Source of the DNA: Raja brachyura
Lineage: Eukaryota
DNA: 64,000 bases
Assembly (NCBI GenBank): GCA_963514005.1
Contig: OY740809.1
Location: 32,488,001 to 32,552,000, forward strand
Direction of reading: 5' to 3'
Below are positions 45,001-57,000 of the stretch, piece after piece (positions within the stretch are counted from its first letter, which is position 1; every line of letters starts with the position of its first letter). Made by a program: the position numbers.

Positions 45001-48000
45001 GCAAATGGTTTGAGAGGGAAACGGCTCCTGATACATAATTGTTGCCTCACTGTCAAGGCTGGCTTCTGAAACATAACTGTTGCCTCGCTCACTTACGGTT
45101 TGCAGCTTTTCCTTTTGAAGAATTTTCAGAATTAAATCATGTTGCCACCGTCAATTAGTTGTGTTGCAGTCCTTGAAATAGTAATTTAATCTCCCTGCGG
45201 TAGTACTGGGCAGTGGGAGGGAACTGGTGGTGCTGTGGTGCTTTATTCAATCGTTTTATACAACTTAATGGATTTCACACAAAAAAATCAGGGTCAGTGG
45301 GAGAAACCTTGAGTGTCTTGTCCAGTATTTTATGTGCACATGAAGCAATAGAATGCATTTTGTGAATTTTGAGAGTATGCTTCAAAAAAGACAAGTGTGA
45401 CACCACTTAACCTCTGCACCAAGATTATAAAGTCCTTTATGTTGTCAGTGAAGCATTGCACTCTACTATAAAGCATTCTGCGTTGAGGACATTTTGTGCA
45501 GTTATGTGATCTGGTTGGGTTGGGGTTGTTAAAGCTCACTGCAAAGAGTGGCTCTTCAGACTGACTTGCAGCACTTGATGCGTTTATCAACTGAAACAGC
45601 AGAAATTTAATTATCCTGTTACATTTTTTGTCATTATTGGTTGTAATACACTTTGTATCTAATAAGAATCGTGGAATAATAGCTGATTGCACATGCCATC
45701 ACAGTTGCTGTTTCACAAATCAAAAACAATGTAATTGCCATTGGAAGTAATACATTTAAGTAATAGTCAAACATGAATAACTAGTGTTGGGTGGGGATGT
45801 ATCATGCTGGCAATTTTAACCAGTTTTCTTTTTGCTACATTTTATGTATTTGCTAAAATTTGACCCTGAGTTTTTATGCAACAGTTTTTTATGTAACATT
45901 TTTTTTATGCTTCACCCATTCCTTCTCTCCAGAGATGCTGCCTGTCCCGCTGAGTTACCCCAGAATTTTGTGTATCTTCGAAAACAACCAGAGCATTTGG
46001 TTTTCCCCAAAAAAAGTGTAAGGGTGTTAGTCTGGCAATGATGACAAACTTGCCCTCACTGAGAACAGTGTTCAATAATGAAAACTCTGTACTCGAACCT
46101 GAGCCAGACTAAATATCTTGCTGATAAAATCTCAAATTCATTATTATTACCCTTGTTAACACTTCATTAGAAATTTCTCTTTGTTGGAGATGAGGTAGAA
46201 GTGGATGGTAGTTAACGGAGGGAGGGGAAGATAGAATCGATCGGCATTTCAAAAATTTGGGAAAGAAAAATGCTTTATATAGACACTGGAAACTTGCAAG
46301 TTTATCTAATTTAAATTTATGAAACTTGAGGGATTCAGGGATTTCCTTATTCAATTTCAGTCCTCTTTAAAAAGCCTGTAAATGCCTCGAATTCTGTAAT
46401 TTAACTGCAAAATACTCGGTGGTTAACACAGACACAAGAGACAACATGTACTAGAATCCTGGGCAAACAATGCTGGAGGAATCCAGCAGAGCCGGCAGCA
46501 TCTGGGGAGGAAATAGATGGGCGGCATTTTGGGCAGAGACCCTTCCAACTGATTTCAGACCAGTCTGAAGAAGGATCTCGATCTGTTGCCTGTCCATTCC
46601 CTCCCCTACATTCAATGGTTATTGTAGGTTAACAGCATGTAGCAGGGCTAGTCACGTTTGGTTTTGCACCCTGGGATGAAAAAGACGCAACATGATTGTC
46701 AAAGCAAGGTTGCTTTCTTCAATAAGTAATTAACAAGAAGGCTTTTTTCACATTACACATTTGAGATCAGATCACCTTAAAGAGAATTTAATTCATACTT
46801 GTGAATTGTGTCCATGATAACTTTGCCGGTGTAAATTATGATGCAGTATTGACTTTTAGAAACATGTCCTAACGTACAAAGTTCACTTGATGTAATCCTA
46901 TTTCTGGCTTCAGCAAGAGGCTCCAACTCAAACTAAACGCACTTGTGGTTTAGTAAAACTTTGGCACAGATGCTATGTTTTGAGGGGGGGAAAGAAAGGA
47001 TATACAGACATGAAAGCTAACTCTGAGCGTACAAGTTTTCTAGCAAGCCGATTGTATAAATACATTGGCTGAAATGTTTAAAGCGGGTTTGTGATATTTG
47101 TCACTCAATTTAATGCAAATGCCAATGACGTGGTCATTGAATGCCTGTTTATTGTATATGGTCCTACATTTTATGTATTTGCTAAAATTTAACCTTTAGT
47201 TTTTATGCAACATTTTTTTATGTAACTTTTTTTTTATGCTTGTGAATATAAACCTTCAACAGAAGACCGTCATTTACTGAAGAAGTCTTTGTTGTATCGT
47301 TACTTAACACTGGTGGTGTCTAATTCTTTGCATTCTAAAGGCCATTGATTTGTGTATTAAAAGTCCATGTAATTTACTGAATAATCACAAATCAGAAATG
47401 AAGGTATTAATGAATAGCCGCAATTGATGTTTTAAACTAGATTGAGATGTGATTCCACGTGGTTTATGTGTTTCGTTCCGATGTTTCACAGGTATGTTTT
47501 CAGCCGGCCTTGCTCCAGCGACCTTTGTTCCTAATCCATACATCATTAGTGCTGCCCCACCAGGTACAGACCCCTACACTGCAGGGCTTGCTGCGGCTGC
47601 AACTCTGGCAGGTAAAACCTCACTCATTTCAGTGATCGGAATGAAGAGAATTAATAGCACTGCTTGAGTATTTGTTCCCCTACCATAGAAGGCATGGGCA
47701 AGGAATTAGTGCATGAGGAAGAAAGAAATACCATCTTAAAATCATTCTTCTGGGTGGAGAAAACAAGAGGGAGCTGTGTGAATGGCCTTATCTCGTTTGG
47801 GAATGCTATCTTGTTTACAGTTTTTCTTGACATTTGATTCGTATCCATTTAAAAGTCCAACCCACGCATTGTAGGGTGGGGGGGTAATTTTGTAATCACT
47901 CTGCAAACTGAATAGTTGGCGATTGAGCAGTGAATTCATAGCAAATGATGGGAGGGAGGAGAGAACATTCAAACGCATGTGGTTTTGACAACAAAGCAAG

Positions 48001-54000: not shown

Positions 54001-57000
54001 TCCCCGCGTCCTTGGGACTAACTGGCAGACCCATTCACAGACATATTTAACCTCTTCATCACTCCATTCTGAAGTCGCTTCGACCACTATCATCCCAATA
54101 TCAAAGAAAAGTAAGACTGCTTAGCTTAATGACTACCTTTCACACTGCGTCAGGACAGCAGCCGACTCGATCAAGGATTCTTCCCACCCTGGCCATTCCT
54201 GATCCCTGTCTGACAGATATACAGAAGCTTGAAAGCATGTACCTCCAGACTCGAACAGCTTCTCTATCAAACGCCCAAACTGTTCTCCTGTAAACTAGGA
54301 TACAGTGCTGATTCTCCAACCGGCCTCTTTGGACATTGAACCTTTTCTCTGGAACTGGTTTCCTGCAATGTTGAGACCTACATCCTGCACTCCAATACCT
54401 TTCTCTGTTCTACCTTGTACACCCATGTTTGGCTTGATTGTGTTTATGTAGTGTATTTTCTGATTTGATTGACTAGCACACAAACAGAAGCATGACACTA
54501 TACCTAGGTAATCATCTTAAATCTAAATGTCAGAACTGGGAGCACGTCTTATGAAGAAGCATTGTCAGAGAACTGGTTAACAAGCGAGTAGATTTGGTGG
54601 ACCTTGAACAAGGACTACAAAGTTTTGAAGGAATTAACATACACTGAGGTCGGAAGGTGGAAGAAGCTTTGACAGGACAATATTGGAATAAGTACAGATG
54701 ATAAATGTTTGCAATTTTAAAAACTGGCTAGCACCCAACAAAAGCTTTTCACTGTACCTCTGTACATGTGACATTAAACTAAACCTATTCCTAGATAAGT
54801 ACATGCATAGGGATGGAAGTTGAGCTTGGAGTTGAATAGAATAAAATAATCCTTCTGTCGCTCTTCAATCCCCACGCCTATAGTCTGTGTTCATTTGAGA
54901 TTATGGATTTACAGTATGTAGCGCTGCATTCTCTAATAATCATACCTTATTTCAGGTTATCAAGTCCTTGCTCCAGCAGCTTACTACGACCAGACTGGTG
55001 CTCTTGTGGTGAATGCTGGGGCTCGGAATGGCCTGGGAGGTCCTGTTCGCCTGGTTGCTCCAGCGCCTGTAATTATAAGTCCATCCGCAGCGCAGGCAGG
55101 TAAGATTGGCTGTATGTGGAGAAGCTGAAAACGTGGATATAAACCGTTTACAAACCTACAATTGTTTATAAACCTACAATTTTCACTGCCTCTTAAAGTT
55201 GAACTGTTAGATCATTTCAGATGATACAATGTTTTTGCTGTCTGAACCATGAATTTGAAGATCCTGCAATATACATAAAATAATTACCTTGTTGGGTATT
55301 TCTACGGAGGGTACTTGCAGTGCCCTCCGTGTTTAAAAAAAAAAGACTAATTCAATGACGTTTTTGGATTGTTCGATTTACTGCCTCTTTTATTGTGTGT
55401 GGCTTTTGGGTCTGAAAAATTCCCTTCGGCAGGAAGGATGCTTCCCAAAGGCGATTTAACCCAAGGCCTTCAGGGATGATGTACAACCACTGTGTATTAA
55501 CACAATGACAGGATGTGCCCCTATTCTGTCTTTATTTGTAGATGTTTGTTGTATTTGTGACAAACGTGGATGAACTGCTGGTGTCCTTTTCAACAGGTTT
55601 TGTGGGATGAATTTCTAAGGCCTCATCCAGCTAAAACACCCAAGTTTCAAATGTAGCAAAACCAGATTCACAGGCACAAAATTTGTTCCAAGTAAAATAA
55701 CCAGAGAAGGGTCTCGACCCGAAACGTCACCCATTCCTTCTCTCCAGAGATGCTGCCTGTCCCGCTGAGTTACGCCAGAATTTGTGTATCTTCGAAAACA
55801 ACCAGAGCATTTGGTTTCCCCCCCCAAAAAAGTGTAAGGGTGTTAGTCTGGCGATGATGACAAACTTGCCCTCACTGAGAACAGTGTTCAATAATGAAAA
55901 CTCTGTACTCGAACCTGAGCCAGACTAAATATCTTGCTGATAAAGTCTCGAATCCATTATTATTACCCTTGTTAACACTTCACTAGGAATGTTCTCTTTG
56001 TTGGGGATGAGTTGGAAGTGGATGGTAGTTAACGGCGGGAAGGAGAGATAGAATTGATCGGCATTTCAAAAATTTGGGAAAGCAAAATGTTTTATATAGA
56101 CACTGGAAACTTGTTAGTTTATTTAATTTAAATTTATGAAACTTGAGGGATTCAGGGATTTCCTTATTCAATATCAGTCCTCTTTAAAAAGCCTGTAAAT
56201 ACCTCGAATTCTGTCATTTAACTGCAAAATACTCAGTGGTTAACAAAGACACAAGAGATAACATGTACTAGAATCCTTGGCAAACAATGCTGGAGGAATC
56301 CAGCGAAGCCGGCAGCATCTGGGGAGGAAATAGACGAGTGTTTTTTTGGGCAGAGACCCTTCCCGCTGATTTCAGACCAGTCTGAAGAAGGATCTCGATC
56401 TGTTGCCTGTCCGTTCCCTCGGAAATAGACGGTGGCATTTTGGGTACTTGCAGTGCCCTCCATAATGTTTGGGACAAAGACCCACCATTTATTTATTTGC
56501 CTCTGTACTCCACAATTTTAGATTGTAATAGGAAAAAAAAATCACATCTGGTTAAAGTGCACATTGTCAGATTTTAATAAAGGCCATTTTTATACATTTT
56601 GGTTTCACCATGTAGAAATTACAGCTGCGTTTATACATAATCCCGCCCCCCCATATTAACGTTTGGGACACAGCAATGTAATGTAAATTAAAGTAGTCAT
56701 GTTTAGTATTTTGTTGCCTATCCTTTGCATGCAATGACTACTTGAAGTCTGCGATTCATGGACATCACCAGTTGCTGGGTGTTTTCTCTGGTGATGCTCT
56801 GCCAGGCCTGTATTTCAGCCATCTTCAGCTTATGCTTGTTTTGGGGGCTAGTCCCCTTCAATTTTCTCTTCGGCATATAAAAGGCATGCTCAATTGGGTT
56901 CAGATCGGATGATTGACTTGGCCACTCAAGAATTGATCATTTTTTTTAGCTTTGAAAAACTCCTTTGTTGCTTTAGCAGTATGTTTGGGATCATTGTCTT

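What the first reader, a model, noticed from the sequence alone, without database searches (positions are those of the whole stretch)
45835..56461. snoRNA family expanding intron-to-intron inside its host gene, exactly one copy per intron
Seen: four SNORD103/85-type snoRNAs in introns 8, 9, 11 and 12, never two in one intron. The copies in introns 8, 9 and 12 are identical or one base apart and sit in 1-1.5 kb duplicated blocks whose flanks carry more substitutions and indels than the snoRNA. The intron-11 copy is an older paralog with unrelated flanks. Known: vertebrate intronic snoRNAs are trimmed from debranched lariats, which favours one per intron, and this family guides 18S rRNA Gm601 (human numbering). 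Inference: this is cis-duplication of a snoRNA caught in progress, with breakpoints still readable, raising guide dosage per PUM1 transcript.
Basis: partly seen in the sequence, partly recalled or inferred. Interest (0 to 1): 0.8.

Follow-up and report, generated by a model that had tools for sequence, protein, structure and literature searches.

The report
Intron-to-intron snoRNA copies in ray PUM1
A ray's PUM1 gene carries four copies of a known ribosome-modifying guide RNA in four introns; two are younger pasted-in copies with readable insertion scars, a tidy example of an already known way such RNAs multiply.

Summary
Rfam finds exactly four SNORD103/SNORD85 box C/D snoRNAs on the + strand (A 46031, B 48889, D 53114, C 55847). 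Each lies in a different intron of a batoid PUM1 gene. A and B are identical, C differs by one base, and D is an old paralog with unrelated flanks.

B's block (48459-50001) is the likely source. A (45913-47168) is an insertion bracketed by a 78-nt target duplication and includes a decayed copy of B's splice acceptor. C (55415-56420) is bracketed by a 20-nt duplication, with a templated filler at its 3' junction. No exon was duplicated, there is no A-tail and the snoRNA 5' end is not matured, so these are not classical snoRNA retroposons.

Two inferences are weaker than claimed. The low snoRNA divergence belongs to 0.5-0.7 kb tracts of about 2% divergence inside blocks that are otherwise about 7% diverged. 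That suggests later gene conversion, and selection on the new copies is not shown. "One per intron" is expected by chance in 23-63% of trials.

Multi-copy SNORD103/85 in PUM1 introns and "cis-duplication" are already in print (chicken, human). Verdict: real, ordinary in kind, with unusually legible junctions.

The parts
46031..46108 (+). snoRNA copy A (SNORD103/85 family), in the intron between exons w6 and w7
   Evidence: Rfam RF00188, 74.2 bits, E 3.3e-14. Identical to B. Folds with a 10-bp terminal stem plus a 6-bp outer helix, z -3.7.
48889..48966 (+). snoRNA copy B, in intron w7/w8; inferred source copy
   Evidence: Rfam 74.2 bits. Its block contains both the part shared only with A and the part shared only with C.
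53114..53194 (+). snoRNA copy D, old paralog, in intron w9/w10
   Evidence: Rfam 76.4 bits. 65 of 82 aligned columns identical to A. Canonical C' box. Flanks unrelated to the blocks except for an interspersed repeat.
55847..55924 (+). snoRNA copy C, in intron w10/w11
   Evidence: Rfam 71.7 bits. One A-to-G difference from A/B at snoRNA position 7.
45913..47168 (+). Block A: inserted copy of B 48771-50001
   Evidence: 93.2% identity to B. Junctions read.
45835..45912 (+). Upstream copy of the 78-nt target duplication bracketing block A
   Evidence: Only two copies exist in the window; 73 of 78 positions identical to 47164-47241.
47164..47241 (+). Downstream copy of the 78-nt target duplication. 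Its first 5 nt are a microhomology shared with the end of the B-derived sequence.
47155..47163 (+). Decayed copy of exon w8's splice acceptor inside block A. The AG equivalent at 47159-47160 reads TG.
   Evidence: Alignment of A with B across B's acceptor at 49993/49994.
48459..50001 (+). Block B: source segment, the 3' two-thirds of intron w7/w8 up to and just into exon w8
   Evidence: Union of the A-B and B-C homologies.
55415..56420 (+). Block C: inserted copy of B 48459-49459
   Evidence: 94.8% identity to B.
55309..55328 (+). Upstream copy of the 20-nt direct repeat bracketing the C insertion
   Evidence: Exact 20-nt match to 56442-56461. It is made of 9 nt of non-transposon flank plus the first 11 nt of a Tc1-like terminal inverted repeat.
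55329..55414 (+). Orphan filler between the 20-nt repeat and block C
   Evidence: No other match in the window (query 55100-55414).
56421..56441 (+). Templated filler at block C's 3' junction, copied from a segment about 95 nt upstream inside the block
   Evidence: 14-nt exact match to B 49376-49389 and 11-nt exact match to C 56326-56336. A 3-nt microhomology joins it to the 20-nt repeat.
56442..56461 (+). Downstream copy of the 20-nt direct repeat
56451..57898 (-). Degenerate Tc1/mariner-type element abutting the C insertion; it predates the insertion
   Evidence: 87% identical, inverted, to 41154-42573. The other copy gives Pfam DDE_3, HTH_Tnp_Tc3_2 and HTH_SB fragments. Terminal repeats read.
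44362..44455 (+). PUM1 coding exon w6
   Evidence: tblastn with named batoid PUM1 proteins, 100%. Splice sites.
47492..47611 (+). PUM1 coding exon w7 (120 nt, frame-preserving cassette)
   Evidence: 100% to Leucoraja and Hemitrygon PUM1. Absent from Pristis pectinata isoform X5.
49994..50139 (+). PUM1 coding exon w8, followed by a GC donor
52414..52552 (+). PUM1 coding exon w9
54956..55099 (+). PUM1 coding exon w10
59192..59485 (+). PUM1 coding exon w11

Best explanation
The window is part of the PUM1 gene of a ray or skate (batoid). It holds four intact-looking members of the SNORD103/SNORD85 box C/D snoRNA family. This family guides 2'-O-methylation of one conserved G in 18S rRNA (Gm601 in human numbering).

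Two copies are old residents: B in intron w7/w8 and D in intron w9/w10. A and C are younger. Each arose when a ~1.0-1.3 kb piece of B's intron was copied and pasted into another intron of the same gene, in the same orientation and without duplicating any exon.

Both pastes left a duplicated stretch of target sequence on either side (78 nt for A, 20 nt for C) and short microhomologies at the junctions. C also has an 86-nt orphan filler and a 21-nt filler templated from inside the block. I read this as DNA-level template switching, or repair of a staggered break using the nearby intron as template.

Later, gene conversion between B and each daughter re-homogenised tracts of 0.5-0.7 kb that include the snoRNA. 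This is a large part of why the three snoRNAs are (nearly) identical.

The new copies keep all boxes, the guide and a 10-bp terminal stem, and they sit in introns of an expressed gene. They are therefore probably processed into mature, functionally redundant guides. Shown: the copies, the blocks, the junctions, the two-tier divergence and the host gene. Inferred: polarity (B as source), the molecular mechanism, gene conversion, expression, and any dosage effect.
For: Family: 4 of 4 Rfam hits at 71.7-76.4 bits against a cut-off of 45. The C box, D' box, D box, terminal stem and an 11-nt guide are invariant in all four copies.

Host: exon 38187-38459 is 99% identical to PUM1 of Pristis pectinata, 96% to skates and 65% to PUM2. 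Fourteen coding exons were mapped.

Polarity:
- A is bracketed by a 78-nt repeat that is otherwise unique in the window.
- A's homology to B runs through B's acceptor and 3-8 nt into exon w8, which is conserved in all batoid, shark and chimaera PUM1 proteins printed.
- C is bracketed by an exact 20-nt repeat that includes non-transposon flank plus the tip of a Tc1-like element.
- B alone contains both the A-only and the C-only parts.

Complex junction: C's 3' filler matches a block-internal segment.

Age and later conversion: the target duplication is 5/78 diverged, which matches the A-B 3' part (42/531, p=0.82) but not the A-B 5' part (14/700, p=0.034). Maximum chi-square with permutation gives p=0.003 for A-B and p=0.015 for B-C. 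The segment 46109-46603 differs at 11 sites between A and B but at 33 between B and C.

Not a retroposon: 118 nt (A) and 432 nt (C) of upstream intron are retained, and there is no A-rich tail.

Terminal stems.

Precedent: chicken PUM1 has 3 family copies, in introns 9, 12 and 21, and intragenic duplication is called the main mode of snoRNA expansion (PMC2653536, passages).
Against: No second genome could be compared, so lineage-specificity and empty target sites are not shown.

The 3' end of block A falls within 8 nt after the main acceptor of exon w8, and 1 nt before an alternative acceptor used in a Leucoraja isoform. A DNA-level model does not predict this coincidence with an intron end; an RNA template would.

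The divergence steps are not perfectly sharp, and the breakpoints were found post hoc, though they were permutation-tested.

Selection on the new snoRNAs is not demonstrated (p=0.19 within tract). Expression, snoRNP assembly and methylation are untested.

All four copies lie 1.0-3.3 kb from their 3' splice sites. From recall (Hirose and Steitz, not read here), this is far from the position optimal for splicing-coupled box C/D assembly in mammals.

If exon structures match, the chicken spacing (introns 9 and 12) fits B and C rather than B and D. This is unexplained.
Confidence: 0.72

Rival explanations
1. RNA-templated spread. The excised or unspliced snoRNA-bearing intron w7/w8 was reverse-transcribed and inserted into neighbouring introns, as a tailless, 5'-truncated retro-copy with target duplication. 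DNA was not the template.
For: Block A's homology ends 8 nt past the main acceptor and 1 nt short of an alternative acceptor of exon w8, so it ends practically at an intron end. Both insertions have target duplications and are in sense orientation. Template jumps like C's filler are also typical of reverse transcriptases. snoRNA retroposons that carry downstream intron are known in mammals (Type-2 snoRTs, PMC1687206, passages).
Against: There is no A-rich tail. The snoRNA 5' end is not matured (118 and 432 nt of upstream intron retained). The duplications of 78 and 20 nt lie outside the 7-19 bp reported for snoRTs. C's 3' end is not at an intron end. The intron-end coincidence is a single post hoc observation. 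The chicken study found no snoRNA retroposons outside mammals (PMC2653536).
Confidence: 0.15
2. The young copies are neutral passengers. They were duplicated by chance along with a piece of intron. They look intact only because they are young and were homogenised by gene conversion, and they add nothing useful to guide dosage.
For: The snoRNA is not cleaner than its own low-divergence tract (0/78 vs 14/622, p=0.19). One per intron is expected by chance (0.23-0.63). The site already has redundant guides here (B and D) and in human (three). A/B/C have a degenerate C' box compared with D and the family consensus.
Against: All essential boxes, the guide and a 10-bp stem are intact in all three after ~6-8% flank divergence. 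The whole-region contrast is nominally significant (1/78 vs 44/611, p=0.027). Both inferred conversion tracts include the snoRNA. The single change in C is at a position outside the boxes, stem and guide.
Confidence: 0.35
3. Assembly artefact: the three blocks are mis-placed or falsely duplicated copies of a single intron segment.
For: This cannot be excluded without reads. The region is rich in interspersed repeats (27 hits of one ~100-nt unit in 64 kb).
Against: The blocks differ by 2-8% and by indels. They have different extents. Each sits in unique sequence between correctly ordered, intact PUM1 exons, with its own target duplication. There is no N or gap in the window.
Confidence: 0.03

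Closest known systems
SNORD103A / SNORD103B / SNORD85 in human PUM1, and GGgCD15 (three copies) in chicken PUM1 introns 9, 12 and 21
   Same: Same Rfam family, same host gene, same target site assignment via the 5' (D') guide, and several redundant copies in separate introns (PMC2653536 table; PMC11550049 table).
   Different: Here two of the four copies still sit in ~1 kb of recognisably duplicated intron with intact junctions. Orthology of B and D to particular amniote copies was not established. A further copy near the 3' end of the gene (chicken intron 21) would lie outside the window.
cis-duplication / intragenic duplication of intronic snoRNAs (term used in PMC2653536 and PMC2817437; cow U17HG example in PMC1687206)
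   Same: [quoted passage not shown]
   Different: The one example I read with junction detail (the cow U17HG 930-bp duplication) is tandem and duplicates an exon. Here the copies are dispersed insertions into non-adjacent sites, without exon duplication, and carry 78-nt and 20-nt target duplications and fillers.
snoRNA retroposons (snoRTs, Weber 2006, PMC1687206)
   Same: Sense-orientation insertion into introns, flanked by target duplications. Type-2 snoRTs carry downstream intron sequence.
   Different: No A-rich tail, an unprocessed 5' side, and duplications longer than the reported 7-19 bp. The insertions are in the same gene, not elsewhere in the genome.
Microhomology-mediated template switching (FoSTeS/MMBIR-type) or templated insertions at staggered breaks
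   Same: Short junctional microhomology (5 nt, 3 nt, 1 nt), a templated back-jump filler, an orphan filler, and re-copying of target sequence on return.
   Different: Nothing here distinguishes a replicative from a repair origin.

Membership tests
Rfam RF00188 SNORD103/SNORD85 (box C/D snoRNA) | Covariance-model score above the curated gathering score | tested here: met
   71.7-76.4 bits against 45 for all four copies, full-length model match 1-83.
Rfam RF00188 SNORD103/SNORD85 (box C/D snoRNA) | C box near the 5' end, D box near the 3' end, terminal stem | tested here: met
   The boxes are invariant in the four-way alignment. A/B/C have a 6-bp model stem that extends to 10 bp with flanks. D has 5 bp plus one mismatch.
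Rfam RF00188 SNORD103/SNORD85 (box C/D snoRNA) | Antisense element upstream of the D' box matching the family's guide for 18S Gm601 | tested here: inconclusive
   The guide plus D' box is identical in all four copies and to the Rfam consensus. Its perfect complement occurs in the window only at the four snoRNAs themselves. The species' own 18S rRNA is not in the window, so the duplex itself was not checked. The target assignment comes from PMC11550049 and PMC2653536.
Rfam RF00188 SNORD103/SNORD85 (box C/D snoRNA) | Intronic, sense orientation in PUM1 | tested here: met
Rfam RF00188 SNORD103/SNORD85 (box C/D snoRNA) | Expressed as a stable ~80-nt RNA that directs methylation | not testable with these tools
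   No RNA data were available.
cis-duplicated (intragenic) snoRNA paralogs | Paralogs in different introns of one host gene, with homology extending into flanking intron DNA | tested here: met
   Blocks of 1006-1543 nt at 93-95% identity.
cis-duplicated (intragenic) snoRNA paralogs | Lineage-specific presence, with an empty site in relatives | not testable with these tools
snoRNA retroposon (snoRT) | Copy starts at the matured 5' end of the snoRNA | tested here: not met
   118 nt (A) and 432 nt (C) of upstream intron are included.
snoRNA retroposon (snoRT) | A-rich tail at the 3' end | tested here: not met
   The 3' junctions read show no A run.
snoRNA retroposon (snoRT) | Target-site duplication of about 7-19 bp | tested here: inconclusive
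   Duplications are present but are 78 nt and 20 nt long. The reported range comes from PMC1687206.
sno-lncRNA locus (two snoRNAs in one intron) | Two snoRNAs within a single excised intron | tested here: inconclusive
   Not met in the full exon model. It would be met for A plus B only in transcripts that skip exon w7, as in the predicted Pristis isoform X5. There are no RNA data for this species.

The most novel reading that the evidence does not exclude
The intron-to-intron spread was RNA-mediated. The excised snoRNA-bearing intron, whose 3' end coincides with the end of block A, was reverse-transcribed without a poly(A) tail and re-inserted into a neighbouring intron of the gene being transcribed. 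The copies were afterwards kept alike by gene conversion. This would be a previously undescribed 'tailless intron retro-copy' route for cis-duplication of snoRNAs outside mammals. A side consequence: in transcripts that skip cassette exon w7, A and B would cap one intron and could yield a snoRNA-ended long RNA.
Probability: 0.12. Interest if true: 0.6.

Novelty: new member of a known kind. Interest (0 to 1): 0.33.

Why it matters
[quoted passage not shown] The chicken catalogue called the way snoRNAs become embedded in host introns 'still enigmatic' (PMC2653536).

This locus preserves both insertion junctions, the polarity, and evidence of later homogenisation. It is therefore a usable case study for the mechanism and for concerted evolution of redundant guides.

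It does not change what is known about the family, its host or its target. The claims of selection and dosage benefit remain unproven.

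Tried and rejected
- **Degenerate extra copies:** a permissive Rfam scan found none.
- **A cis target for the guide in the host pre-mRNA:** there is no perfect + strand complement. One-mismatch sites (5 on the + strand) are near chance; 9 matches in total (4 of them the snoRNAs themselves) against 3.8 expected.
- **Continuation of block C beyond the Tc1-like element:** no homology was found downstream of 57898 (query 57899-58300).
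- **Origin of the 86-nt orphan at C's 5' junction:** no match elsewhere in the window.
- **'One per intron' as evidence of constraint:** rejected as uninformative here.
- **snoRT membership:** rejected (see the membership test).
- **Pfam on the ~400-nt repeat ORFs** (40622-40948, 18966-19358): no family found.
- **Literature:**
  - 'SNORD103' with 'PUM1' gave one irrelevant paper.
  - 'snoRNA' with 'elasmobranch' gave 11 papers; by title and abstract start none concerns snoRNA genes of cartilaginous fishes.
  - 'snoRNA' with concerted evolution and gene conversion gave no paper on intronic snoRNA paralogs.
  - A 2026 paper on snoRNA host-gene evolution (PMC13736004, passages only) mentions neither PUM1, SNORD103, gene conversion nor cartilaginous fishes.
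- **Orthology to amniote paralogs:** I did not attempt to assign B or D to particular human paralogs.

Full report
**What is there.**
An Rfam scan of the whole window at gathering threshold returns four matches, all to RF00188 (SNORD103/SNORD85) and all on the + strand:
- A 46031-46108, 74.2 bits
- B 48889-48966, 74.2 bits
- D 53114-53194, 76.4 bits
- C 55847-55924, 71.7 bits

The cut-off is 45 bits. A permissive scan (E<=1) lists 13 matches. No further SNORD103-like sequence is among them, and the other nine are sub-threshold hits to unrelated families, several of them on palindromic repeat pairs.

A and B are identical. C differs by one A-to-G change at position 7, outside the boxes, stem and guide. 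D shares 65 of 82 aligned columns with A, with 5 gapped. It has a canonical C' box where A/B/C have a degenerate one. The C box, the 11-nt guide with its D' box, the D box and the terminal stem are invariant in all four. With 15 nt of flank, A/B and C fold into a 10-bp terminal stem plus a 6-bp outer helix (z -3.7 and -3.3). D folds less distinctly (z -0.56). The window contains no N.

**Host gene and layout.**
One poorly conserved exon, searched on its own (38187-38459, 91 aa), is 99% identical to PUM1 of Pristis pectinata. It is 96% identical to skate and stingray PUM1, 93-96% to sharks, 89% to Callorhinchus, and only about 65% to PUM2 (671 of 840 candidates at E<=0.001). The window is therefore batoid PUM1 and not human.

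Exon positions were mapped by running named reference proteins against the window and reading the splice sites. In window order the relevant exons are:
- w6 44362-44455
- w7 47492-47611
- w8 49994-50139
- w9 52414-52552
- w10 54956-55099
- w11 59192-59485

A lies in intron w6/w7, B in w7/w8, none in w8/w9, D in w9/w10 and C in w10/w11. They could not be checked because the first ~150 residues are encoded outside the window. All four snoRNAs are about 1.0-3.3 kb from their 3' splice sites.

**The duplicated blocks and their polarity.**
Self-comparison gives these homologies:
- A 45912-47168 with B 48770-50001: 93.2% over 1262 columns
- B 48459-49459 with C 55415-56420: 94.8% over 1007 columns
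- A with C: 93.7% over 695 columns

B therefore contains a part shared only with C (48459-48769) and a part shared only with A (49460-50001).

*Block A.* It is bracketed by a 78-nt direct repeat (45835-45912 and 47164-47241). This repeat occurs nowhere else in the window and is 73/78 identical. At its 3' end A's homology to B runs through B's polypyrimidine tract and acceptor and 3-8 nt into exon w8. The uncertainty reflects a 5-nt microhomology with the start of the repeat. In A the acceptor AG equivalent reads TG. Exon w8 is conserved in every batoid, shark and chimaera PUM1 printed. B is therefore the resident and A the insertion.

*Block C.* It is bracketed by an exact 20-nt repeat (55309-55328 and 56442-56461). 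The repeat consists of 9 nt of ordinary flank plus the first 11 nt of the terminal inverted repeat of a degenerate Tc1/mariner element. The transposon was therefore already there when C arrived. Between the repeats lie three pieces: an 86-nt orphan with no other match in the window, the 1006-nt block, and a 21-nt filler. The filler reproduces a segment about 95 nt upstream inside the block, with a 14-nt exact match to B and an 11-nt exact match to C itself. It joins the repeat through a 3-nt microhomology.

Neither insertion has an A-rich tail. Both retain upstream intron sequence (118 and 432 nt). No exon was duplicated.

**Divergence: selection or conversion?**
In the three-way shared region the flanks carry 44 substitutions in 611 ungapped columns (A 8, B 5, C 31) plus 6 gapped columns. 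The snoRNA carries 1 in 78. One-sided Fisher p is 0.027.

But divergence is two-tiered over much longer stretches than the snoRNA. A maximum chi-square scan with permutation places a step in each pair:
- A-B: step after 46592, with 12/679 before and 41/548 after, p=0.003
- B-C: step after 48986, with 12/527 before and 33/473 after, p=0.015

The 78-nt target duplication is an independent clock for the A insertion. It is 5/78 diverged. This fits the high tier (p=0.82) and not the low tier (p=0.034). The 495 nt just downstream of the snoRNA differ at 11 sites between A and B but at 33 between B and C, so that segment is not generally constrained.

The simplest account is as follows. Both insertions date to roughly 6-8% pairwise divergence. 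Later gene-conversion events, at about 2%, overwrote tracts that include the snoRNA. Inside its own tract the snoRNA is not significantly cleaner than its neighbours (0/78 vs 14/622, p=0.19). Purifying selection on the young copies is therefore possible but not shown. Long-term constraint on the family is clear from the A-D comparison, where the boxes and guide are invariant.

**One copy per intron.**
I placed two new copies at random in the window's introns, weighted by length, with the inserted blocks removed. They land in two different snoRNA-free introns in 63% of trials. The figure is 23% if only the five local introns are allowed. The pattern fits the known rule but is no evidence for it here.

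In addition, exon w7 (120 nt, frame-preserving) is skipped in Pristis pectinata isoform X5. In such transcripts A and B would lie in one intron.

**Mechanism.**
The two target duplications, the microhomologies, the templated back-jump and the orphan filler fit template switching or staggered-break repair that used the nearby intron as donor. This comparison rests on general knowledge and not on a paper read here.

An RNA-templated route is not excluded. Block A ends 8 nt past the main acceptor and 1 nt short of an alternative acceptor used in Leucoraja isoform X3. That is practically at an intron end. For a boundary that could have fallen anywhere in roughly 1.2-3 kb, I estimate this as about a 1-2% coincidence; it is a post hoc estimate from a single case.

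Against the RNA route are the missing tail, the unprocessed 5' side, the atypical duplication lengths and C's internal 3' end. These features also fail the definition of snoRNA retroposons in PMC1687206 (passages).

**What is already known.**
- The chicken catalogue (PMC2653536, passages and a table row) lists this family with three copies in PUM1 introns 9, 12 and 21. They guide 18S-G562 through the 5' antisense element. The paper names intragenic 'cis-duplication' as the main source of new snoRNA paralogs.
- A review table assigns human 18S Gm601 to SNORD85, SNORD103A and SNORD103B (PMC11550049).
- A review states the one-snoRNA-per-intron rule and that host genes commonly carry several snoRNAs in different introns (PMC11028025).
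- PMC2817437 discusses cis-duplication in mammals.
- I found nothing on snoRNA genes of cartilaginous fishes or on gene conversion among intronic snoRNA paralogs. These are the only searches behind that statement.

**Open points.**
- The chicken copies in introns 9 and 12 are three introns apart. In this window that is the B-to-C spacing, not the B-to-D spacing. Whether this is a numbering difference or something real is unresolved.
- A further copy near the gene's 3' end (chicken intron 21) would lie outside the window.
- Absolute age cannot be given. With the slow nuclear rates reported for elasmobranchs (recalled; Martin 1999 was seen only as a reference-list entry), 6-8% could mean tens of millions of years, so 'caught in progress' is generous.
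Supplementary files of the papers were closed.

**Verdict.**
It is a new, lineage-level instance of a known process in a known family and host gene. Its value lies in the legible junctions and in the evidence that later homogenisation, and not selection alone, keeps the copies alike.

Noticed in passing
window 50140-52413: The intron after exon w8 starts with a GC donor (exon ends CAG, intron begins GCAAGT) and ends with a normal AG. It is the one intron in this stretch without a snoRNA.
   Followed up: partly
window 47492-47611 and 49994-50002: Exon w7 (120 nt) is a frame-preserving cassette, absent from Pristis pectinata PUM1 isoform X5. A Leucoraja isoform uses an acceptor 9 nt inside exon w8. 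Both findings come from predicted reference proteins, not from RNA of this species.
   Followed up: partly
window 40523-42593 and 56451-57898: Two degenerate Tc1/mariner copies in opposite orientation, 87% identical. Frame-broken transposase fragments match Pfam DDE_3, HTH_Tnp_Tc3_2 and HTH_SB. The first copy carries a nested ~400-nt repeat at about 40618-41034.
   Followed up: partly
window, 27 sites (e.g. 7471-7558, 35799-35886, 43667-43747, 48740-48838, 53441-53631): An ~80-100-nt interspersed unit is very abundant (27 hits at E<=1e-5, 14 plus and 13 minus). One inverted pair (48751-48830 and 49320-49399, 71% complementary) brackets snoRNA B and was copied with it. Block A's 5' breakpoint falls inside this unit. 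The family was not identified.
   Followed up: partly
window 35237-35343 and 36139-36232: Back-to-back inverted copies of the same short repeat form long hairpins. They produce sub-threshold Rfam hits on both strands (Plastid-psbJ-4, mir-1249), which are almost certainly spurious.
   Followed up: no
window 16151-16434, 18993-19493, 27673-28077, 30402-30803, 40638-41033, 60859-61158: A ~300-500-nt repeat family with a conserved open frame. Two tested frames had no Pfam match. It may be the tail of a retroelement.
   Followed up: partly
window 57895-57922, 28960-28993, 59036-59067: Long G or C homopolymer runs. The first lies directly at the outer end of the Tc1-like element next to block C.
   Followed up: no
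window 46016-46123, 48874-48981, 55832-55939: The young copies carry a 10-bp terminal stem plus a further 6-bp outer helix in the flanks. This might help box C/D assembly so far (1-3 kb) from the 3' splice site. The link to processing is recalled from mammalian work and was not tested.
   Followed up: partly
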